The notes: generated by a model from the letters alone, not told the origin. A stretch of 16,403 bases of DNA from Escherichia coli (GCF_048403405.1 NZ_CP183130.1); one strand, 5' to 3'. Numbered from the stretch's first letter, positions 1 through 7,228 are shown. Made by a program: numbers and translations.

Positions 1-67
1 AAAGAAGAGGACGCAACAGCGTCCTTTAACAGAGTTCAGTTCTTATTCATCATCCGGAAACAAGTTC

Positions 68-472
68 TTAATGTTGTTTCTTGTTTCCAGGAGATTCTGA
101 TCGACTGGAGCAGTATATTTCTTGCGTAGCAGAATCAACCGCAGGCAGGATCGCTTTTGCATTATTACCAGCAGACTGCAGAAATGCCTCCAGCAAACGA
201 ACGACTTCACCATTTTCCTGTTGTGGTAGCGTACTACTGATAATTCGTTGAATATCCTGCATAGACGTGCTGTCTGTCAGGAATTCAGCTATCAGGAACG
301 GCAATCGTTCATCCTGCTTCATCAATGCAGCACCACACAACATCATGGCCCGCATTGCCCGACCACGTTCTTTCTGAGGCAATTTTTCAAGAAACCTGTC
401 AGCCACCCGATCAGCTGCATTTCGTTCCGGATAAATATAAAAAGAGCACTTACGATTATCAGCCATACTCAT
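68..472 (-). CDS. parR: ParR/StbB-like centromere-binding adaptor of a type II (actin-like) partition system
   Basis: 134-aa ORF directly downstream of parM with a 4-nt ATGA start/stop overlap. Translation (KERGRAMRAMMLCGAALMKQDERLPFLIAEFLT) resembles plasmid R1 ParR as I recall it. Family assignment is from memory, not a search. Confidence 0.8.
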   Translation of the reverse strand: MSMADNRKCSFYIYPERNAADRVADRFLEKLPQKERGRAMRAMMLCGAALMKQDERLPFLIAEFLTDSTSMQDIQRIISSTLPQQENGEVVRLLEAFLQSAGNNAKAILPAVDSATQEIYCSSRSESPGNKKQH

Positions 473-1449
473 CCCTTCATTGCCATCATTCCCAACACCA
501 GATCGAACTGAGGATTGTCACTGACAAAGAAACGGTTATCACCCACTCCTGTCGCTTTTTTTACTGCCCCAGCCACAAGGCTGGCACCACCGCCAACAAC
601 CATAACATGAGTAAAACCAGCAAAGCGTCCTACTGAATCCGCCACACGATAATGCAGTTTTTTTTCCCGGTCACGTAATACTGTCAGGATCCGCTCACGC
701 TGTTCTGCATTCGGGATATAACGGGTCAGGAATTCATTGTCATCCCGGCCCTGGATTAGACGATCTGCAAAATAAGAACTGGTTCGTGTACTCACATTCA
801 CATCCATCGCATGCTTAACTGCTTCAGTAATGATGGAGACGCCAGTCTTGGGGTCACAATAGGTTTTTGTGAAACCTGACATTTTGCTGCGGACATGTGC
901 AATATCAAGGGTCGTTCCACCGATATCAACAATCAACAGCGACTCCAGATCATTCAGATCTTTCAGCACGTCAAAACCGGCAGGCACGGACTCAGGCAAG
1001 ACACTGACTTTACGAATGGTAAAGTTTTCACGCCCCTGAACTGTTACAGTTCGCCGGACATTATTTTTCTTACGTTCGATATTAGCCAGATTTGGCTGAT
1101 CGTTCTCATCCAGATACTCACCTAAAGGTAAAGTCACAACAATATCAACAGGTTGTGGAGCAATACCTGACTGCATCAACGCATGATGAATAGCAACCAC
1201 ATTAACGTCGCTGTACTGATAACGCGTTTCTGTGGTGCGCACTGCATCCGGACTCAATTGATCAAAGCTGTATTTTTCTCCATCAATCTCATAGTTTGCG
1301 GAAGCGGGTACAGTGGCATCAGTCAGTCCCTGCAGCGTCATAGACCATTCCGGCTTAAAACTATTCGGACTAATTAACGTTTTCACTGCACCGTCTTCAA
1401 CCCAGGCCAGTTTGATGTTGGTAGAGCCGTCGTCTACAAAGATACGCAT
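469..1449 (-). CDS. parM: ParM/StbA actin-like partition ATPase
   Basis: 326-aa ORF; N-terminus MRIFVDDGSTNIKLAW and internal LLIVDIGGTTLDI, HVMVVGGGA motifs match actin-fold ParM of R1/R100. GAGG RBS 7 nt upstream of the ATG. Confidence 0.9.
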   Translation of the reverse strand: MRIFVDDGSTNIKLAWVEDGAVKTLISPNSFKPEWSMTLQGLTDATVPASANYEIDGEKYSFDQLSPDAVRTTETRYQYSDVNVVAIHHALMQSGIAPQPVDIVVTLPLGEYLDENDQPNLANIERKKNNVRRTVTVQGRENFTIRKVSVLPESVPAGFDVLKDLNDLESLLIVDIGGTTLDIAHVRSKMSGFTKTYCDPKTGVSIITEAVKHAMDVNVSTRTSSYFADRLIQGRDDNEFLTRYIPNAEQRERILTVLRDREKKLHYRVADSVGRFAGFTHVMVVGGGASLVAGAVKKATGVGDNRFFVSDNPQFDLVLGMMAMKG

Positions 1450-1560
1450 CTAGAACCTCACATAAATAAAATGGATTTTTTTAGAAAAATACGAGATCAA
1501 AAACGATTATCACCTAAAACAACGTATCGGTAAAGACCTGATATCGGCCACAAATGGAAA

Positions 1561-1660
1561 AATAAAGAAAAACACAGACAAAAACCGACACCAACAGCAC
1601 AAAAGAGAACAAACAAGAACAAATAAAGATAAACACTGATGAAATCCAGAAAAAACTCAA
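1561..1660. repeat. Putative parC-like centromere: about ten A-rich units with ~10-bp periodicity (approximate consensus AAACAAGAAC) upstream of parM
   Basis: Chunking 1561-1660 into 10-mers gives related units (aacacagaca, aaaaccgaca, aaaagagaac, aaacaagaac, aaacactgat ...). Position upstream of parMR is where ParR-bound iterons are expected. The repeats are degenerate and were aligned by eye only. Confidence 0.35.
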
Positions 1661-1786
1661 AGCTTCATATACAATGTCAGTAATTCATCCTCTGACGCCA
1701 CCACTACCTCCAGCCAAAATGAGCGGGTAAGATATCCGGAGCCTTATAGTCAGGAGGCTTCTACAGGAAAGCTGATGAGGAAGAGA

Positions 1787-2122
1787 ATGCGAACGATCAC
1801 CACACGTGAACAGTTATTAGTGAACGGAAAAGTCAGGGAACGGATTGCCACACATATCGTGACAGGCGCTCACGGGTATGAAACGCTTTGCACAAGTGGT
1901 TATAACTTACAATACAATAAGGAACGGGTACTGATTGAAAACTGCGAAAAGGTGGCTGATGGAGAACTGCCTGTCACCTGCCACACTTGTTTCTCTATAT
2001 GGCAGGATGTACACCGGTTCAAACCTGGTGACTTTGACACAGAATCAGGAAAGGGAAATTTCACTGATACGGAGCTCACGAAAATCACAATTGGACAAGA
2101 AAAAACGCCGAATGCGTGTTGA
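1787..2122 (+). CDS. Hypothetical small Cys-containing protein (start ambiguous, 1775 or 1787)
   Basis: ORF 1775..2122; the second in-frame ATG at 1787 has a GAGGAA RBS. Product has a CHTC pair and further Cys residues. No family recognised. Confidence 0.4.
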   Translation: MRTITTREQLLVNGKVRERIATHIVTGAHGYETLCTSGYNLQYNKERVLIENCEKVADGELPVTCHTCFSIWQDVHRFKPGDFDTESGKGNFTDTELTKITIGQEKTPNAC

Positions 2123-2173
2123 TGTGCCGCGTCAGCCGGCGCAGTAAAAAGAGGAGCATGGCGACATCCTTTA

Positions 2174-2203
2174 CCGGAAAAGAAACGGGCGGTTGCCCGC
2201 CCG
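2174..2203 (-). terminator. Intrinsic terminator-like hairpin downstream of the 323-aa minus-strand gene
   Basis: Perfect 7-bp GC stem CGGGCGG/CCGCCCG (2186-2192 and 2197-2203) with a 4-nt loop; on the minus strand it is followed by TTTCTTTTCC (plus 2174-2185). Confidence 0.45.
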
Positions 2204-2216
2204 TCTCCGTCATACT

Positions 2217-3143
2217 TCATCCACCGTAATGCGCCACCTTGTCGACTATCCACGCAGGTCCGGTGACTTCCGGCAGCTCATCATCATCTGTCGGGGAAGA
2301 CCATTCCAGCTCCCCCCACAGCACATCAACAAGCTCTCCGCGCTCATACAACTGCCAGCCACAGAAATCACAGCCCTGTTCGGCATACCAGTGCTCCAGC
2401 GTGCAGCTGAAACGGCGGCTTAATTCTGCAATAACGTCGCTTTCCGGCTGACACCACGGCGTGTCGAAATCAACCTGAATGAAGTTGTCTCCCTGACTAC
2501 TGATATTCAGGTCATACCCACAAGGCCACTTCACGCCATACCGTTCTGTATACCAGTGATATGCAGAAGGAACACCGTTCAGAACACCGCCGTTAAAGCC
2601 ATTCACTTCAATATCCAGGCGGGTCGGCAAAACCGTCAGCAGGTCAAACGGCATGGTTTTTTCCGGCAGTACGTTGTCACACAGACGGTTCCACCACACC
2701 GATACATCCTCGTTACCCCAGATGTCACACCAGTCACCTCTTTTTGCGGTGAAATGCACAGTGATAGTTTCCCTGACATCATCCGGTAACTCTTCCCAGC
2801 GACGCTGTCCAGTACCGCTCTGCAGCCAGAGTTCATGCAGCATCAGGCAGTTTTGCTCATCCAGCAGTACACCGTTCTGCAGGTGTGTCAGCCAGCGGGT
2901 GAACGCGATATTTTCCGGTGATACAGCACCACGTCCGGCAGCCGTCACTCCGGGGCACTGCTCAGAGCGGATATTTTCAGTGATCTGCAGAAGTCCGGCA
3001 CTTCCGGCCAGAAACAGCTGAATACCTTCATTTGTGGCGCGGCGATAAAGCGGTGTGACTGCACCGCTGGCCAGTCGTTTAATCTCAGCGATCTGTGCTG
3101 GTTCACCAGAAAAATACATACGATTCGAGCACCAGTTTGGCAT
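2217..3143 (-). CDS. Conserved-looking hypothetical protein (~308 aa), Trp/Cys-rich, function unknown
   Basis: ORF 2217..3188 minus; GAGGAG RBS sits 8 nt before the internal Met (MPNWCSNRMYF...), so the start is placed at 3143. Long intact ORF with an rho-independent-type hairpin after its stop. No family confidently recognised. Confidence 0.65.
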   Translation of the reverse strand: MPNWCSNRMYFSGEPAQIAEIKRLASGAVTPLYRRATNEGIQLFLAGSAGLLQITENIRSEQCPGVTAAGRGAVSPENIAFTRWLTHLQNGVLLDEQNCLMLHELWLQSGTGQRRWEELPDDVRETITVHFTAKRGDWCDIWGNEDVSVWWNRLCDNVLPEKTMPFDLLTVLPTRLDIEVNGFNGGVLNGVPSAYHWYTERYGVKWPCGYDLNISSQGDNFIQVDFDTPWCQPESDVIAELSRRFSCTLEHWYAEQGCDFCGWQLYERGELVDVLWGELEWSSPTDDDELPEVTGPAWIVDKVAHYGG

Positions 3144-3379
3144 GGGAATTCTCCTCTCACATGCGGCCTCCATCAGGCCGTGCCGCACCTGTAACCGGGC
3201 GACCGCATACGAATGCAGGTGCGGCCCCGAAGCCGCAGCGCGTGGAGGAGGAACGACGAAACGTGACCGGGTGAGGAGGCCGGCGACAGCGACACACTTG
3301 CATCGGATGCAGCCCGGTTAACGTGCCGGCACGGCCTGGGTAACCAGGTATTTTATTCACAGAACCGTGCGCAAAATGC

Positions 3380-3388
3380 TGTGGATAA
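3380..3388. promoter_or_regulatory. Perfect DnaA-box 9-mer (TGTGGATAA) in the GC-rich intergenic region upstream of the imp promoter
   Basis: Exact match to TTATCCACA on the complementary strand. A single 9-mer can occur by chance; function not established. Confidence 0.25.
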
Positions 3389-3466
3389 GCTGGACACAGC
3401 AGTCCACAGCAGGCATACAGCCACACTCCCAGAGAATTGAGCGTTTTTTAGTCACAATAATGACAT

Positions 3467-3515
3467 TTGACTGTGTGTGGATTCAGTTATTAGAATACTG
3501 TATATGCATACAGCA
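3467..3515 (+). promoter_or_regulatory. imp operon promoter (-35 TTGACT, -10 TAGAAT) with a LexA/SOS box TACTGTATATGCATACAGCA
   Basis: CTGT-N8-ACAG at 3498-3513 within TACTGTATATGCATACAGCA (3496-3515), close to the LexA consensus TACTGTATATATATACAGTA. TTGACT at 3467-3472 and TAGAAT at 3491-3496 with an 18-bp spacer. The box abuts the -10 and lies ~22 nt before the impC ATG. Confidence 0.8.
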
Positions 3516-3536
3516 ATAGAAAAGGGAGATGAGAAC

Positions 3537-3785
3537 ATGATCCGCATTGAAATTCTTTTCGACCGCCAGAGCACAAAAAACCTCAAATCAGGCACACTTC
3601 AGGCGCTACAGAATGAAATCGAACAACGTCTGAAACCACACTACCCGGAAATCTGGCTGCGTATAGACCAGGGCAGCGCCCCGTCTGTATCTGTCACAGG
3701 AGCCCGCAACGACAAGGATAAAGAACGTATCCTGTCTCTGCTGGAAGAAATCTGGCAGGACGACAGCTGGCTGCCTGCAGCATGA
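3537..3785 (+). CDS. impC: ImpC, small first gene of the impCAB SOS mutagenesis operon
   Basis: Internal ATG at 3537 with an AAGGGAG RBS gives 82 aa, the size I recall for ImpC of plasmid TP110. Stop overlaps the impA start (ATGA). Confidence 0.7.
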   Translation: MIRIEILFDRQSTKNLKSGTLQALQNEIEQRLKPHYPEIWLRIDQGSAPSVSVTGARNDKDKERILSLLEEIWQDDSWLPAA

Positions 3786-4219
3786 GTACCGTTTATCACC
3801 GTCCGGCTGACCCTTCAGGCGATGACAGTTACGTGCGACCGTTGTTTGCCGATCGTTGCCAGGCCGGTTTTCCTTCGCCTGCCACTGATTATGCTGAGCA
3901 GGAACTGGATCTGAACAGCTATTGCATCAGCAGACCTGCAGCCACCTTCTTTCTGCGCGCCAGCGGTGAATCGATGAACCAGGCTGGCGTGCAGAATGGT
4001 GATCTGCTGGTAGTGGACAGGGCCGAAAAACCACAACACGGGGACATCGTTATCGCTGAGATCGACGGTGAGTTCACCGTCAAACGACTGCTGTTGCGCC
4101 CACGCCCGGCACTGGAGCCGGTTTCAGACAGCCCGGAGTTCCGCACACTGTATCCGGAAAACATCTGTATTTTTGGTGTTGTCACTCACGTGATACACAG
4201 GACGCGGGAGTTACGCTGA
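3782..4219 (+). CDS. impA: ImpA/UmuD/MucA-family LexA-like self-cleaving accessory subunit of DNA polymerase V
   Basis: 145 aa; candidate Ala-Gly cleavage site (CQAGFP) and S24-peptidase-like GESM ... VKRL motifs. Translationally coupled to impC and impB. Confidence 0.9.
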   Translation: MSTVYHRPADPSGDDSYVRPLFADRCQAGFPSPATDYAEQELDLNSYCISRPAATFFLRASGESMNQAGVQNGDLLVVDRAEKPQHGDIVIAEIDGEFTVKRLLLRPRPALEPVSDSPEFRTLYPENICIFGVVTHVIHRTRELR

Positions 4220-5490
4220 TGTTTGCACTGGCTGATATCAACAGTTTCTACGCCTCATGTGAAAAAGTTTTCCGCCCGGACCTTCGCAACGAACCGGTCA
4301 TCGTACTCAGCAATAACGATGGCTGTGTGATCGCGCGCAGCCCGGAGGCAAAAGCCCTTGGCATCAAAATGGGGCAGCCCTGGTTTCAGGTGAGACAGAT
4401 GCGCCTGGAGAAGAAAATACATGTATTTTCCAGCAATTATGCGCTGTACCACAGCATGAGCCAACGGGTCATGGCTGTTCTGGAGTCGCTTTCTCCCGCA
4501 GTTGAGCCCTACTCAATTGATGAAATGTTTATTGATTTGCGGGGGATAAATCATTGCATCTCTCCGGATTTTTTTGGTCATCAGCTCAGGGAACAGGTAA
4601 AGAGCTGGACAGGACTCACCATGGGGGTGGGCATTGCGCCTACAAAAACGCTGGCTAAAAGTGCACAGTGGGCAACAAAGCAATGGCCACAGTTTTCCGG
4701 AGTGGTCGCGCTGACGGCAGAAAACCGTAATCGGACCTTGAAGCTACTGGGGCTGCAGCCAGTTGGTGAGGTCTGGGGAGTAGGACGCAGACTGACGGAA
4801 AAGCTGAATGCGCTGGGTATTAACACAGCACTGCAGCTGGCGCAGGCTAACACGGCATTCATCCGGAAAAACTTCAGCGTCATTCTTGAGCGTACGGTAC
4901 GCGAACTCAACGGCGAGTCCTGCATATCCCTGGAAGAAGCACCACCGGCAAAACAGCAGATTGTCTGTAGTCGCAGTTTTGGTGAACGAATCACAGACAA
5001 AGATGCCATGCACCAGGCTGTTGTTCAGTATGCAGAGCGGGCCGCAGAGAAACTACGTGGGGAGCGTCAGTATTGCCGGCAGGTGACGACATTTGTACGG
5101 ACATCCCCCTTTGCAGTAAAAGAACCCTGTTACAGCAATGCCGCTGTGGAAAAGCTTCCATTGCCCACACAGGACAGCCGGGACATTATTGCCGCCGCAT
5201 GCAGAGCCTTAAACCATGTCTGGCGTGAAGGGTACCGCTATATGAAGGCAGGAGTCATGCTGGCTGATTTCACACCATCGGGTATAGCACAGCCGGGATT
5301 ATTTGATGAAATCCAGCCCCGTAAAAACAGTGAAAAGTTAATGAAAACACTCGATGAACTGAACCAGTCGGGAAAAGGGACAGTGTGGTTTGCGGGGCGA
5401 GGAACCGCCCCTGAGTGGCAAATGAAACGGGAAATGCTTTCTCCTGCGTATACCACCAGATGGACAGATTTGCCAGTAGCCCAGTTATGA
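4219..5490 (+). CDS. impB: ImpB/UmuC/MucB-family Y-family translesion DNA polymerase
   Basis: 423 aa; N-terminus MFALADINSFYASCEKVFRPDL...VIVLSNNDGCVIARSPEAKALGIKMG is near-identical in pattern to UmuC. Start overlaps the impA stop. Confidence 0.9.
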   Translation: MFALADINSFYASCEKVFRPDLRNEPVIVLSNNDGCVIARSPEAKALGIKMGQPWFQVRQMRLEKKIHVFSSNYALYHSMSQRVMAVLESLSPAVEPYSIDEMFIDLRGINHCISPDFFGHQLREQVKSWTGLTMGVGIAPTKTLAKSAQWATKQWPQFSGVVALTAENRNRTLKLLGLQPVGEVWGVGRRLTEKLNALGINTALQLAQANTAFIRKNFSVILERTVRELNGESCISLEEAPPAKQQIVCSRSFGERITDKDAMHQAVVQYAERAAEKLRGERQYCRQVTTFVRTSPFAVKEPCYSNAAVEKLPLPTQDSRDIIAAACRALNHVWREGYRYMKAGVMLADFTPSGIAQPGLFDEIQPRKNSEKLMKTLDELNQSGKGTVWFAGRGTAPEWQMKREMLSPAYTTRWTDLPVAQL

Positions 5491-5512
5491 ATATGTAATC
5501 CACCCATAATAT

Positions 5513-5544
5513 TGTTATCTTGTTATCTTGTTATCTTGTTATCT
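5513..5544 (+). repeat. Upstream centromere-like iterons: four tandem 8-bp TGTTATCT (TTATCTTG-phase) repeats
   Basis: Direct reading: tgttatct x4 at 5513-5544, immediately after the impB stop and ~125 bp before parA. Confidence 0.7.
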
Positions 5545-5567
5545 TAATTAATCTATAAATCAAATAC

Positions 5568-5657
5568 TTAACAGCTTGTTAAGTTGTTAACATAACAAAA
5601 ATAATTGCATGGTTCGCGTTCAGATGGCAATATTAAGTTGTTAACTTAACAGCTTAA
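5568..5657 (+). promoter_or_regulatory. parA promoter/operator: two related near-palindromic sites built from GTTAAC-like half-sites
   Basis: Site 1 ttaacagcttgttaagttgttaac (5568-5591) and site 2 ttaagttgttaacttaacagcttaa (5633-5657) contain the same two motifs in swapped order. A candidate -35 TTGCAT (5606-5611) lies between them. Typical architecture for autoregulated small-ParA operons. Confidence 0.5.
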
Positions 5658-5669
5658 TATGAGGCTATA

Positions 5670-6296
5670 ATGATAATAGTATTAGGTAGTCAAAAGGGTG
5701 GGGTAGGTAAAAGTACACTGGCGGTATCTATAGCTGCGTATCTGATGTCACTAGGCAATAGAGTGATTATTGTCGACGCAGATGACCAGAAATCAGTATT
5801 AACCTGGTACAACAATCGCCCTGAAGATTTCCCTCATATTCCGGTTACAGGCGCGACAGGTAACATCAAAGCCATGTTAAAGGAACACGAAAAATCCTAT
5901 GATTTTGTTATTGCAGACTGTGCTGGCCGTGATAGCGCAGAAATGCGTAGTGGATTGATGGCCGCAGATGTATTCATTTCTCCTTTGCGCCCATCTCAGA
6001 TGGACCTGGATGTTGTGCCTCATACATGCTCCGTTTTTACAGCAGCAAAAGATTTTAATGAGGATGTTCGGGGATATCTCGTTTTAAACATGACGCCCAC
6101 AAATATGTTTGTTAATGAAGCCAATGAGGCAGCTGAAGTACTTAAGGATTACCCTGAAATGCATCTGGCAAACTCCCGGGTATGTGATCGTAAAGCACAT
6201 CGAGATGCTTGGGCCGAATCAATGACAATTTTTGAAACGCAAAATGATAAAGCCCAGCAAGAAATCGAAGCGTTAGTGAAAGAGGTTATTCTGTGA
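5670..6296 (+). CDS. parA: Small ParA/ParF-type Walker ATPase (type Ib partition)
   Basis: 208 aa; deviant Walker A GSQKGGVGKST near the N-terminus. Size and layout match ParF-like partition ATPases. GAGG RBS. Confidence 0.85.
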   Translation: MIIVLGSQKGGVGKSTLAVSIAAYLMSLGNRVIIVDADDQKSVLTWYNNRPEDFPHIPVTGATGNIKAMLKEHEKSYDFVIADCAGRDSAEMRSGLMAADVFISPLRPSQMDLDVVPHTCSVFTAAKDFNEDVRGYLVLNMTPTNMFVNEANEAAEVLKDYPEMHLANSRVCDRKAHRDAWAESMTIFETQNDKAQQEIEALVKEVIL

Positions 6297-6595
6297 GAAA
6301 TAGAGCAAACACTTCACCTCGTGACGAGGCAGCATTTATTAACGGTGGCACGGCTGGCCTTGATAATACCAAAAAGTCATCAGATAAATCATCGGTTGTA
6401 AGCAAAGCAAAACCAGTGAGTATTTCTTTTTTTGAAGAAAACCTAAAAGACATTGATGCCCTTATAACGGCTGAGATGGTTTCAGGTAAAGGCAGAGTGA
6501 ATCGTTCTGATGTTGTCAGGGCGGCGGTAGAAGCACTTAAAACACTATCAAAAACAGAGGTATCACGATTGATAGCAGAAGTAAAACAAAGATAA
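6293..6595 (+). CDS. Small partner protein of ParA (ParG/ParB-like centromere-binding protein, putative C-terminal ribbon-helix-helix)
   Basis: 100-aa ORF starting at GTG that overlaps the parA stop (GTGA), with AGAGG upstream. C-terminal RSDVVRAAVEALKTL resembles an RHH strand-helix; N-terminal half is low-complexity. Position fits a ParG-type adaptor. Confidence 0.6.
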   Translation: MRNRANTSPRDEAAFINGGTAGLDNTKKSSDKSSVVSKAKPVSISFFEENLKDIDALITAEMVSGKGRVNRSDVVRAAVEALKTLSKTEVSRLIAEVKQR

Positions 6596-6602
6596 CACCT
6601 TA

Positions 6603-6658
6603 CTATCTTGTTATCTTGTTATCTTGTTATCTTGTTATCTTGTTATCTTGTTATCTTC
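6603..6658 (+). repeat. Downstream centromere-like iterons: about seven tandem 8-bp TTATCTTG repeats, same orientation as the upstream set
   Basis: Direct reading: ctatcttg then ttatcttg x5 then ttatcttc at 6603-6658, starting 8 bp after the stop of the ParG-like gene. Confidence 0.7.
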
Positions 6659-7228
6659 AATGTATTTTAGGATGACCTATGTTGAATAGAACCTAAAACA
6701 AAACAAATATTAATAGGGGTCCGCTTGGAAAAGCGGAAATTTTCCCACGCTAAGAGAATTGAGTTGAACGAGTGGTTACATCCAGGCCAGCTAACTCACT
6801 GAACCCCGTACAGGATCAGACATTCGGTATCTCCTTCATCCTCTGAGGAAAACAAATGAATTAACTGCTTACGTATATGGATACATATACAGTATTAATT
6901 TATTAAGGAGAAAATGGCATGTCAAGATTTAATGATAGTGATTATCATTAACATGAAGTGATGTTACACCGTTCAGAAAGCCTGCTGACGCTGTGGCAGC
7001 ATCACAGTCTGAGTATTCTCTGGTGCAATACAAAAACCGGACTTTCCCGTAACAACAGACAATGTTACGGGAAAAGTTACAGAACTGAGCCACAAAATAT
7101 CTCAGTACCTGAGATGCATAAAAACACCGTACATATGTTTCTCAAAAGGGGGATGATCGTTATCCAGCCATTTCGGTGGATCGGTATGCAGAACACCAAT
7201 CTGCTTCATGCCGGTATGCTGCCTGGAT

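What the first reader, a model, noticed from the sequence alone, without database searches (positions are those of the whole stretch)
68..6658. Two different partition systems (ParMR and small-ParA type) on one backbone, separated by an SOS mutagenesis operon
A type II actin-like system (68-1660) and a type Ib ParA system with iterons on both flanks (5513-6658) sit ~4 kb apart, with impCAB and an unknown gene between them. Dual par loci are known on pB171, where I recall them as adjacent and sharing a centromere; here they are separate units. The 8-bp iterons on both sides of the ParA cassette are in the same orientation, which would suit a cassette flanked by two centromere sites.
Basis: partly seen in the sequence, partly recalled or inferred. 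Interest (0 to 1): 0.4.

Follow-up and report, generated by a model that had tools for sequence, protein, structure and literature searches.

The report
Two known plasmid partition systems
This stretch of an IncI-gamma/K1 resistance-plasmid backbone carries two partition systems, an actin-type ParMR and a small ParA/ParB with 8-bp repeat centromeres; both the systems and their arrangement are already described, so the finding is correct but ordinary.

Summary
parM and parR lie on the minus strand at 43-1449, with a 10-bp-periodic parC and promoter at 1483-1660. A type Ib cassette lies at 5512-6657. It holds ParA (208 aa), a 100-aa ribbon-helix-helix ParB, and TTGTTATC arrays of 4 copies upstream and about 7 downstream. 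A LexA-boxed impCAB operon and a DUF1281 gene lie between the two systems.

None of this is new. The window is 99.6% identical to the IncI-gamma prototype R621a and has the same gene order. ParB is 100% identical to the pESBL ParB, and ParA differs from it by one residue. Daniel et al. 2020 characterised that system experimentally, including EMSA on this octamer. The same proteins were essential for maintenance in the pMS7163B TraDIS screen. That paper reports that 7% of 460 I-complex plasmids carry both systems. A 2026 PLSDB survey counts 971 plasmids that combine a type-I RHH-ParB system with a type II system.

What I add:
- The ParMR unit is a cassette of about 2.1 kb that is absent from pESBL and pMS7163B.
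- The octamer copy number varies between plasmids.
- This window has a private 1-bp insertion that frameshifts the ParM-binding tail of ParR. It is probably a sequence error.

Novelty: already known. Interest is low.

The parts
43..466 (-). parR, the ParR/StbB centromere-binding adaptor of the type II system. In this window a private 1-bp insertion near position 114 shifts the frame after residue 117, so the ORF stops at 68 instead of 43.
   Evidence: Pfam PF10784, E=2e-32. pB171 ParR 2JD3, E=8e-9. Alignment and translation against L007 and R621a show the insertion and the replaced C-terminal 23 residues. No plasmid or E. coli genome record has the insertion.
469..1449 (-). parM, the actin-like segregation ATPase (326 aa)
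   Evidence: Pfam StbA_N and ParM C-terminal domain. R1 ParM 1MWK, E=3e-103, full length. Identical to the ParM of NZ_AP028873.1. dN/dS is 0.04-0.14 against relatives.
1483..1660 (-). parC-like centromere and parMR promoter. About ten degenerate 10-bp T-rich units (consensus near TGTTCTNTTT) lie upstream of a -35/-10 pair (1534-1506), and two similar units lie downstream of it (1483-1506).
   Evidence: Lag-10 autocorrelation 0.58 against 0.41 +/- 0.04, with 0 of 2000 shuffles reaching it. TTTAC-N17-GATAAT is conserved in pCAR10, in a Klebsiella plasmid and in R64. Promoter scan. ParR binding was not tested.
8..25 (-). Terminator-like hairpin just downstream of parR
   Evidence: Terminator scan.
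1775..2122 (+). ORF of 115 aa with unknown function. It travels with the ParMR cassette.
   Evidence: No credible Pfam or NCBIfam hit. Annotated as hypothetical in relatives. A copy with 77% nucleotide identity lies elsewhere in pMS7163B.
2126..2185 (.). Right boundary of the ParMR cassette. Homology to the ParMR-less plasmids pESBL and pMS7163B begins at 2126. In R621a this 60-bp segment is repeated (93% identity) on the far side of parR.
   Evidence: blastn of the window against L006, L003 and L002.
2217..3119 (-). DUF1281 gene, a leading-region-type backbone gene that is not part of either partition system
   Evidence: Pfam DUF1281 plus DUF1281_C. Annotation in relatives.
3467..5490 (+). 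SOS-regulated impCAB operon: promoter-like site 3467-3496, LexA box 3498-3513, impC 3537-3785, impA 3782-4219, impB 4219-5490
   Evidence: Pfam and NCBIfam DinI, UmuD and UmuC. Promoter scan. CTGT-N8-ACAG match.
5512..5545 (+). Upstream parS array: 4 perfect direct copies of TTGTTATC (the complement is GATAACAA)
   Evidence: TRF score 68, 100% matches. Motif count against shuffles. The same octamer is bound by an identical ParB in pESBL (PMC7602700).
5568..5660 (+). parAB promoter and operator. Octamer-like units in 8-bp register and both orientations: CTTAACAG CTTGTTAA GTTGTTAA CATAACAA at 5568-5599, and GTTGTTAA-C-TTAACAGC at 5637-5653. They overlap a promoter-like site, TTGTTA-18-AATAAT, at 5576-5605.
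   Evidence: Repeat finder. TTGTTAW scan. Promoter scan. Autoregulation is inferred, not shown.
5670..6296 (+). parA, a small Walker-type partition ATPase (208 aa, KGGVGKS deviant Walker A)
   Evidence: NCBIfam ParA_partition, E=1e-45, full length, 155.7 bits against a curated cut-off of 180. ParF 4DZZ, E=8e-15. One residue different (F54L) from pESBL ParA WP_000587689.1. dN/dS is 0.026 against the Klebsiella homologue.
6293..6595 (+). parB, a 100-aa centromere-binding protein. It has a conserved N-terminal motif (MRNRANTPPRDEAAFINGGTAG), a variable linker, and a C-terminal ribbon-helix-helix-like domain with an extra helix.
6589..6657 (+). Downstream parS array: one degenerate inverted unit overlapping the parB stop (GATAACAC, 6591-6598), then 6.8 perfect direct copies of TTGTTATC (6604-6657)
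   Evidence: TRF score 108. Repeat finder. Comparison with the pESBL, pMS7163B and R621a arrays.

Best explanation
The window is the maintenance and leading-region edge of an IncI-gamma/K1 conjugative plasmid of the R621a type. It carries two independent, non-homologous partition modules.

(1) A type Ib ParABS module. ParB dimers (RHH) bind cooperatively to the arrays of the octamer TTGTTATC that flank the operon. The small Walker ATPase ParA, bound to the nucleoid, is stimulated by ParB and positions plasmid copies. Octamer-like units in both orientations overlap the promoter, so ParB probably also represses parAB.

(2) A type II ParMRC module on a cassette of about 2.1 kb. ParR binds the 10-bp repeats of parC around its own promoter, and ParM filaments push plasmid pairs apart.

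The impCAB operon and the DUF1281 gene between the two modules are ordinary backbone genes with no role in partition.

Shown elsewhere by experiment, for proteins identical or nearly identical to these: the type Ib module stabilises mini-F, ParB forms plasmid-dependent foci and binds the octamers, and the module is needed for maintenance.

Inferred here: autoregulation of parAB, parC function, and activity of the ParMR module.
For: Identity of the backbone.
- The window is 100% identical over 8-7000 to NZ_AP028873.1, typed IncI-gamma/K1.
- It is 99.6% identical to R621a over 5-7100 (98.8% over 8-12327), with the same gene order: repA, ProQ/FinO, yagA, parB, parA, impBAC, DUF1281, parM, parR.

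Type Ib module.
- ParB is 100% identical and ParA differs by 1 residue from pESBL-EA11 WP_001245884.1 and WP_000587689.1.
- Daniel et al. 2020 (PMC7602700) showed Tn-seq depletion, mini-F stabilisation, GFP-ParB foci, and EMSA ladders of 7 and 8 complexes on probes with 7 and 8 octamer repeats (consensus GATAACAA).
- The same two protein accessions are the only ParA/ParB pair in pMS7163B. There TraDIS found parAB essential for maintenance (PMC10286972).
- Fold and family evidence.
- Purifying selection.

Type II module.
- Family and structure matches.
- parC periodicity and conserved promoter.
- dN/dS of 0.04-0.14.
- This ParMR lineage occurs in 320 plasmid records.

Co-occurrence.
- 142 plasmid records hold at least 80% of the 7-kb arrangement in one place.
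- Hancock et al. report that 7% of 460 I-complex plasmids carry both the R621a and the pMS7163B par loci.
- McPhillips et al. 2026 count 971 PLSDB plasmids combining a type-I RHH-ParB system with a type II system.
Against: In this window ParR is frameshifted after residue 117 by a 1-bp insertion near 114. The C-terminal tail (SAPVDQNLLETRNNIKNLFPDDE in relatives) is replaced. From my own knowledge of R1 ParR (Salje and Loewe 2008; Gayathri et al. 2012), that tail is the ParM-binding peptide. If the insertion is real, the type II module here cannot couple ParM to parC.

No experiment I found tests the ParMR module of any I-complex plasmid, or the two modules together.

Daniel et al. state that the role of the upstream array, centromere or operator, is undetermined.

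The equation 'parAB_R621a = ParMR' in Hancock et al. is my inference from gene content, not a statement in the paper.
Confidence: 0.9

Rival explanations
1. Only one system works in this plasmid. The ParMR module is a decaying remnant whose ParR has lost its ParM-binding tail, leaving at most a parC-bound repressor, and partition rests on the type Ib module alone.
For: The 1-bp insertion near 114 replaces the last 23 residues of ParR. ParMR is dispensable in the sense that pESBL and pMS7163B lack it and rely on the type Ib module (PMC7602700; PMC10286972).
Against: The insertion is found in none of 72,556 plasmid records and none of 5,426 complete E. coli genomes. The window carries seven further private indels in about 12 kb. 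One destroys the stop codon of the essential repA, three fall in yagA, and one falls in the ProQ/FinO gene. That pattern points to sequence errors rather than biology. ParM itself is intact and identical to its relatives, and the lineage is under purifying selection.
Confidence: 0.12
2. The two octamer arrays are not equivalent centromeres. The upstream array, with the mixed-orientation units at the promoter, serves mainly as the operator for ParB autoregulation. The downstream array is the working centromere.
For: Octamer-like units overlap the promoter-like -35 at 5576-5605. Daniel et al. note that in pB171 the upstream array regulates transcription and that the role of the pESBL upstream array is open. 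The downstream array is the longer one here, 6.8 copies against 4.2.
Against: The upstream direct array (5512-5545) lies about 30 bp upstream of the promoter-like site rather than on it. It consists of the same perfect units as the downstream array. In other plasmids it is the longer of the two upstream forms seen: 7 units in pESBL and 9 in pMS7163B. ParB binds direct and inverted repeats with comparable affinity in EMSA.
Confidence: 0.3
3. The small ATPase is not a partition protein but another member of the ParA/MinD superfamily, for example one that is VirC1-like or MipZ-like.
For: Pfam's best domain hits are generic (MipZ, AAA_31, CbiA, VirC1). The score against NCBIfam ParA_partition (155.7 bits) is below that model's cut-off of 180.
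Against: There is a full-length match to the ParA_partition model and to ParF. The operon has an RHH protein and flanking repeat arrays. There is direct experimental evidence for the nearly identical protein.
Confidence: 0.01

Closest known systems
pESBL (IncI1, E. coli O104:H4) parABS, Daniel et al. 2020, Genes 11:1207; the same locus in pMS7163B, Hancock et al. 2023, PLoS Genet
   Same: ParB is 100% identical and ParA differs by 1 residue. Same octamer (GATAACAA / TTGTTATC), arrays on both sides of the operon, and the same position next to impCAB.
   Different: Array sizes and composition differ. The window has 4 units upstream and about 7 direct units downstream. pESBL has 7 units upstream, and downstream it has inverted units followed by direct units. 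pMS7163B has 9 units upstream including variants. pESBL and pMS7163B have no ParMR.
R621a, the IncI-gamma prototype (NC_015965)
   Same: The whole arrangement, from repA through parB-parA-impBAC-DUF1281-parM-parR, at 99.6% identity over 5-7100.
   Different: R621a has 5 upstream and about 6 downstream octamers (5 exact), an intact parR, and 2 residue differences in ParM.
R1/R100 ParMRC (type II)
   Same: ParM aligns end to end with R1 ParM (E=3e-103). Same order parC-parM-parR, with repeats around the promoter.
   Different: This is a divergent lineage. The repeats have a 10-bp rather than an 11-bp period (the R1 figure is from my own knowledge). ParR was detectable only through Pfam and pB171 ParR.
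pB171 double par locus (par1 ParMR plus par2 type Ib)
   Same: It combines a type II system with a type Ib RHH system. The type Ib operon is flanked by repeat arrays on both sides (PMC7602700; PMC13245405). ParR is homologous to pB171 ParR.
   Different: Here the two loci are about 4 kb apart, separated by impCAB and DUF1281, and share no centromere. The pB171 layout (adjacent, divergent loci sharing parC1) is from my own knowledge, because no pB171 record was available. The repeats here are 8-bp units.
R64 (IncI1) par region
   Same: It also has a type Ib ParA with a small protein, plus ParMR, next to impB.
   Different: It is a different type Ib lineage. ParA is 24% identical, the small proteins are unrelated, and the repeats are GGATATC/GGGTATC-like. 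Its ParMR lies directly downstream of the type Ib genes and is only 66% identical to this one.
TP228 ParFGH
   Same: Small ParA-like ATPase (ParF, E=8e-15) and an RHH centromere-binding protein with a flexible N-terminal tail. The repeats have an 8-bp period (the parH architecture is from my own knowledge).

Membership tests
Type II (ParMRC) partition system | Actin-like ATPase ParM | tested here: met
   Pfam StbA_N, E=9e-79, and ParM C-terminal domain, E=2e-67. R1 ParM, E=3e-103, full length.
Type II (ParMRC) partition system | ParR adaptor encoded immediately downstream of parM, with an N-terminal DNA-binding domain | tested here: met
   Pfam Plasmid_stab_B over residues 7-78, E=2e-32. pB171 ParR 2JD3, E=8e-9. 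The genes are adjacent: the parM stop is at 469-471 and the parR start is at 466.
Type II (ParMRC) partition system | ParR C-terminal tail that binds ParM | tested here: not met
   In this window a private 1-bp insertion near 114 replaces the last 23 residues. Relatives keep the tail ...ETRNNIKNLFPDDE. The insertion is probably a sequence error. The role of the tail is from my own knowledge of R1 ParR.
Type II (ParMRC) partition system | parC centromere: iterated ParR sites around the parMR promoter | tested here: inconclusive
   Significant 10-bp periodicity at 1541-1660 and a conserved promoter at 1534-1506. ParR binding cannot be tested with these tools.
Type Ib (small ParA / RHH-ParB) partition system | Small Walker-type ParA (about 200 aa) without an N-terminal DNA-binding domain, with a deviant Walker A motif | tested here: met
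   208 aa. KGGVGKS at residues 9-15. Full-length match to NCBIfam ParA_partition (203 positions), E=1e-45, though below its curated cut-off (155.7 against 180 bits). ParF, E=8e-15.
Type Ib (small ParA / RHH-ParB) partition system | Small centromere-binding protein with a ribbon-helix-helix fold, encoded downstream of parA | tested here: met
Type Ib (small ParA / RHH-ParB) partition system | Centromere made of short iterated repeats bound by the small protein | tested here: met
   Perfect octamer arrays at 5512-5545 and 6604-6657. Binding is shown by published EMSA for the ParB of identical sequence (PMC7602700). It was not re-tested here.
Type Ib (small ParA / RHH-ParB) partition system | Confers plasmid stability or positioning | not testable with these tools
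   Published for pESBL (mini-F stabilisation, Tn-seq, microscopy) and for pMS7163B (TraDIS), with proteins of the same accession numbers.
Type Ib (small ParA / RHH-ParB) partition system | Autoregulation of the operon by the centromere-binding protein | not tested
   Octamer-like units overlap the promoter-like site at 5576-5605. This is inference only.
ParG family (TP228) | Sequence homology to ParG | tested here: not met

The most novel reading that the evidence does not exclude
The two modules may not be redundant. The ParMR cassette lies next to leading-region-type genes. It looks as if it was acquired by recombination with the homologous leading region of F-like plasmids, because the same lineage sits next to DUF1281 in the IncF plasmid pCAR10. 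It might provide partition that is specific to a host or a condition, or that acts early after conjugation, which the nucleoid-dependent type Ib module cannot provide. A related possibility is that the shared octamer centromere causes partition incompatibility between I-complex plasmids and the Klebsiella IncFII-type plasmids that carry the same repeats. In that case a second, unrelated par system would rescue the plasmid during co-residence.
Probability: 0.12. Interest if true: 0.45.

Novelty: already known. Interest (0 to 1): 0.08.

Why it matters
It matters little as a discovery. IncI-complex plasmids are major carriers of ESBL and AmpC genes, and their maintenance modules are possible targets for plasmid curing.

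The type Ib module is already characterised. The dual arrangement is already present in a prototype plasmid and has been counted in surveys.

The modest open point is that nobody appears to have measured what each module contributes in a plasmid that carries both. It is also unknown whether the variable octamer copy number, or the centromere shared with Klebsiella plasmids, has consequences for incompatibility.

Tried and rejected
- pB171 records. I tried to fetch pB171 (NC_002142, AB024946) for a direct comparison, but it is not in the collections. I used the pB171 ParR structure and R64 instead.
- pMS7163B accession. CP026855 without the NZ_ prefix was not found.
- Paper search syntax. One search failed on the term 'IncB/O'.
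- ParB sequence searches. The search against PDB sequences, Pfam and NCBIfam gave nothing useful. The fold had to be predicted.
- The pCT 'parB' paper. The pCT 'parB' inactivation paper (PMC4083329) targets a parB-like nuclease gene that it describes as unrelated to the R64 and ColIb-P9 parB genes. I take it to be the leading-region gene called parB_2 in pMS7163B, so it says nothing about either system here.
- PMC6961859. This paper is about IncP KorB and is irrelevant.
- PMC6361801. This paper mentions only a generic parA in the maintenance region.
- Chance or simple-sequence origin of the arrays. I considered that the octamer arrays might be a chance or simple-sequence feature. I rejected this: 11 copies against 0.48 expected, and the arrays are conserved across plasmids.
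- A non-partition ParA/MinD ATPase. Considered and rejected; see the rival explanations.
- Exact co-occurrence count. I could not obtain an exact count of plasmids carrying both systems in PLSDB. The figures available are 142 records with the full 7-kb arrangement, 320 with this ParMR lineage and 1436 with this type Ib lineage.

Full report
**What the window is.** Positions 8-7000 are 100% identical to E. coli plasmid NZ_AP028873.1, which is typed IncI-gamma/K1, MOBP, MPF_I. Positions 5-7100 are 99.6% identical to R621a, the IncI-gamma prototype, and positions 8-12327 are 98.8% identical. R621a has the same gene order: repA, a 510-bp ORF, ProQ/FinO, yagA, a 100-aa ORF, ParA, impB, impA, impC, DUF1281, a small ORF, ParM, ParR, and then the methylase, DUF1380 and antirestriction genes of the leading region.

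**Checking the observation: type II system.**
- ParM (469-1449, minus strand) matches both Pfam ParM domains (E=9e-79 and 2e-67). It aligns end to end with R1 ParM (E=3e-103).
- ParR matches Pfam Plasmid_stab_B (E=2e-32) and the pB171 ParR structure 2JD3 (E=8e-9).
- Upstream of parM, a T-rich stretch at 1541-1660 has a clear 10-bp period. Lag-10 autocorrelation is 0.58 against 0.41 +/- 0.04 in dinucleotide shuffles, and 0 of 2000 shuffles reach it. This also holds when the maximum over lags 5-15 is taken.
- A TTTACC-17-GATAAT promoter-like site at 1534-1506 is the one block conserved in the upstream regions of three relatives: pCAR10, a Klebsiella variicola plasmid and R64.
- Two more iteron-like units lie between the -10 element and the start codon.
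- This is the expected anatomy of a parC, with repeats around an autoregulated promoter. ParR binding itself is inferred.

**Checking the observation: type Ib system.**
- ParA (5670-6296) is 208 aa with a KGGVGKS Walker A motif. It gives a full-length match to NCBIfam ParA_partition (E=1e-45; 155.7 bits, below the curated cut-off of 180) and to TP228 ParF (E=8e-15).
- The next ORF (6293-6595, 100 aa) starts with a GTG that overlaps the parA stop.
- Tandem Repeats Finder reports 4.2 perfect copies of TTGTTATC at 5512-5545 and 6.8 at 6604-6657. The window has 11 copies against 0.48 expected by chance. All array copies are on the + strand.
- In addition, the promoter region holds octamer-like units in 8-bp register and in both orientations: CTTAACAG CTTGTTAA GTTGTTAA CATAACAA at 5568-5599, and GTTGTTAA-C-TTAACAGC at 5637-5653. 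They overlap a promoter-like TTGTTA-18-AATAAT at 5576-5605.
- A degenerate inverted unit overlaps the parB stop.

**Checking the observation: genes between the two systems.** These are a DUF1281 gene and an impCAB operon of DinI-like, UmuD-like and UmuC-like proteins. A perfect LexA box, CTGTATATGCATACAG, lies directly after the operon's promoter-like site. A 115-aa ORF of unknown function lies at 1775-2122.

**The type Ib module is a characterised system.**
- Translating the corresponding genes of pESBL-EA11 (NC_018659) shows that the window's ParB is 100% identical to WP_001245884.1. ParA differs from WP_000587689.1 at one residue, F54L.
- Daniel et al. 2020 (PMC7602700) found this locus by Tn-seq in a delta-oriT background and showed that it stabilises a par-less mini-F.
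- They also showed that GFP-ParB forms foci only when pESBL is present, and that ParB binds the octamer repeats (consensus GATAACAA, the complement of TTGTTATC) in EMSA with one complex per repeat.
- They classed it as type Ib, with arrays upstream and downstream like pB171 and pSM19035. They left open whether the upstream array acts in partition, in regulation, or in both.
- The same two protein accessions are the only ParA/ParB pair in pMS7163B. There TraDIS found parAB, together with the replicon, to be required for maintenance (PMC10286972).

**What I add on ParB.** Daniel et al. found no DNA-binding motif in ParB.
- A family alignment of 24 Enterobacterales homologues (down to 56% identity) shows an invariant N-terminal motif, a variable linker and a conserved C-terminal half.
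- An AlphaFold model is confident for residues 41-100: an extended segment, then helices 48-64, 71-82 and 87-99.
- So the protein is 'ParG-like' in fold and role, but not in sequence.

**The ParMR module is a cassette.**
- pESBL and pMS7163B lack ParMR. Their homology to the window starts at position 2126.
- In R621a the 60 bp at window 2126-2185 recur, at 93% identity, on the other side of parR. The unit of about 2.1 kb (parR, parM, parC and the 115-aa ORF) is therefore bracketed by a short direct repeat.
- The same ParMR lineage (96% nucleotide identity) sits next to DUF1281 and the methylase-type leading-region genes in the IncFIA/FIC plasmid pCAR10. An 80% relative sits in a Klebsiella IncFII multireplicon plasmid. 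This suggests exchange through the homologous leading regions of F-like and I-complex plasmids.
- The lineage is under purifying selection. ParM dN/dS is 0.14 against pCAR10 and 0.04 against the Klebsiella copy. ParA is 0.026 and ParB is 0.18 against the Klebsiella homologues.

**The dual arrangement is already reported.**
- It is present in the reference plasmid R621a.
- 142 PLSDB records hold at least 80% of the 7-kb stretch in one place. 320 records hold this ParMR lineage and 1436 hold this type Ib lineage.
- Hancock et al. 2023 report that 20% of 460 I-complex plasmids carry parAB of pMS7163B, and that 7% carry both 'parAB_R621a' and 'parAB_pMS7163B'.
- pMS7163B has only the octamer system. 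R621a has that system plus ParMR. The paper says the two references share no similarity. The R621a reference must therefore be the ParMR pair. This is my inference.
- McPhillips et al. 2026 count 971 PLSDB plasmids that combine a type-I RHH-ParB system with a type II system, and they describe that combination as previously reported.
- R64 also has two systems, but its type Ib is of a different lineage. ParA is 24% identical, the small proteins are unrelated, and the repeats are GGATATC-like. Its ParMR lies directly downstream.

**A caveat for this particular sequence.**
- Against its closest relatives, the window has private single-base indels near positions 4, 7 and 114, at 7231, 8295, 8419 (2 bp) and 8965, and at 11041.
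- The insertion near 114 shifts the parR frame after residue 117 and replaces the C-terminal 23 residues. From what is known of R1 ParR, that tail binds ParM.
- A 35-nt query centred on the insertion finds no match in 72,556 plasmid records or in 5,426 complete E. coli genomes.
- Another of these indels removes the stop codon of the essential repA, and others break yagA and the ProQ/FinO gene. I therefore think they are sequence errors. If the insertion is real, the type II module here is uncoupled.

**Verdict.** The finding is an ordinary, known feature of IncI-gamma/K1 backbones. The remaining open questions are incremental:
- the relative contribution of the two modules when both are present;
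- the role of the upstream array;
- the consequences of variable octamer number. Upstream copies are 4 in the window, 5 in R621a, 7 in pESBL and 9 in pMS7163B;
- possible cross-incompatibility with Klebsiella plasmids that share the octamer.

Noticed in passing
window ~4, ~7, ~114, 7231, 8295, 8419, 8965, 11041: Private 1-2-bp indels relative to the closest plasmids. They frameshift parR (C-terminal tail), yagA (three sites) and the ProQ/FinO gene, and they destroy the repA stop codon. The insertion near 114 is absent from all plasmid and E. coli genome records searched. These are most likely sequence or assembly errors in the source.
   Followed up: partly
window 5512-5545 and 6589-6657; L002, L003, L006: The number and orientation of octamers vary between otherwise near-identical plasmids. 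Upstream: 4 (window), 5 (R621a), 7 (pESBL), 9 with variant units (pMS7163B). Downstream, pESBL and pMS7163B have inverted GATAACAA units ahead of the direct array.
   Followed up: partly
L010 (Klebsiella pneumoniae pLYS105A-2) 1380-2660; About 630 records, mostly Klebsiella IncFII-type plasmids, carry a homologue of the same type Ib module at about 89% nucleotide identity (ParA 97% and ParB 83% amino-acid identity). It has the same TTGTTATC octamer, with 9 copies downstream. This raises the possibility of partition incompatibility with I-complex plasmids.
   Followed up: partly
window 2126-2185; L002 12516-12575: A 60-bp direct repeat (93% identity) brackets the ParMR cassette in R621a. It could mediate loss of the cassette by recombination, or it could be a scar of its acquisition. 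The second copy lies just outside the window's left end.
   Followed up: partly
window 1775-2122 (+): A 115-aa ORF of unknown function travels with the ParMR cassette. A copy with 77% nucleotide identity lies near the pil region of pMS7163B (L003 14202-14485).
   Followed up: no
literature: PMC10286972 against NC_018659 and NC_005014: Hancock et al. 2023 state that the R64 parAB is 100% conserved in pESBL. In the RefSeq records, pESBL-EA11 carries the pMS7163B-type ParA and ParB (the same protein accessions). No R64-type parAB is found in the 66 kb of pESBL examined. R64 ParA is only 24% identical. The last 22 kb of pESBL were not checked.
   Followed up: partly
L004 (R64) 45200-48300: R64 itself has a tandem double par locus next to impB: a type Ib ParA, a 102-aa protein, then ParM and ParR. 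GGATATC/GGGTATC-like repeats lie before, between and after the type Ib genes.
   Followed up: partly
window 10720-10735: A second CTGT-N8-ACAG match (CTGTATTTGTTCACAG) lies between the 510-bp ORF and repA. It could be a chance match, since 5 of 200 shuffles give two or more matches.
   Followed up: no
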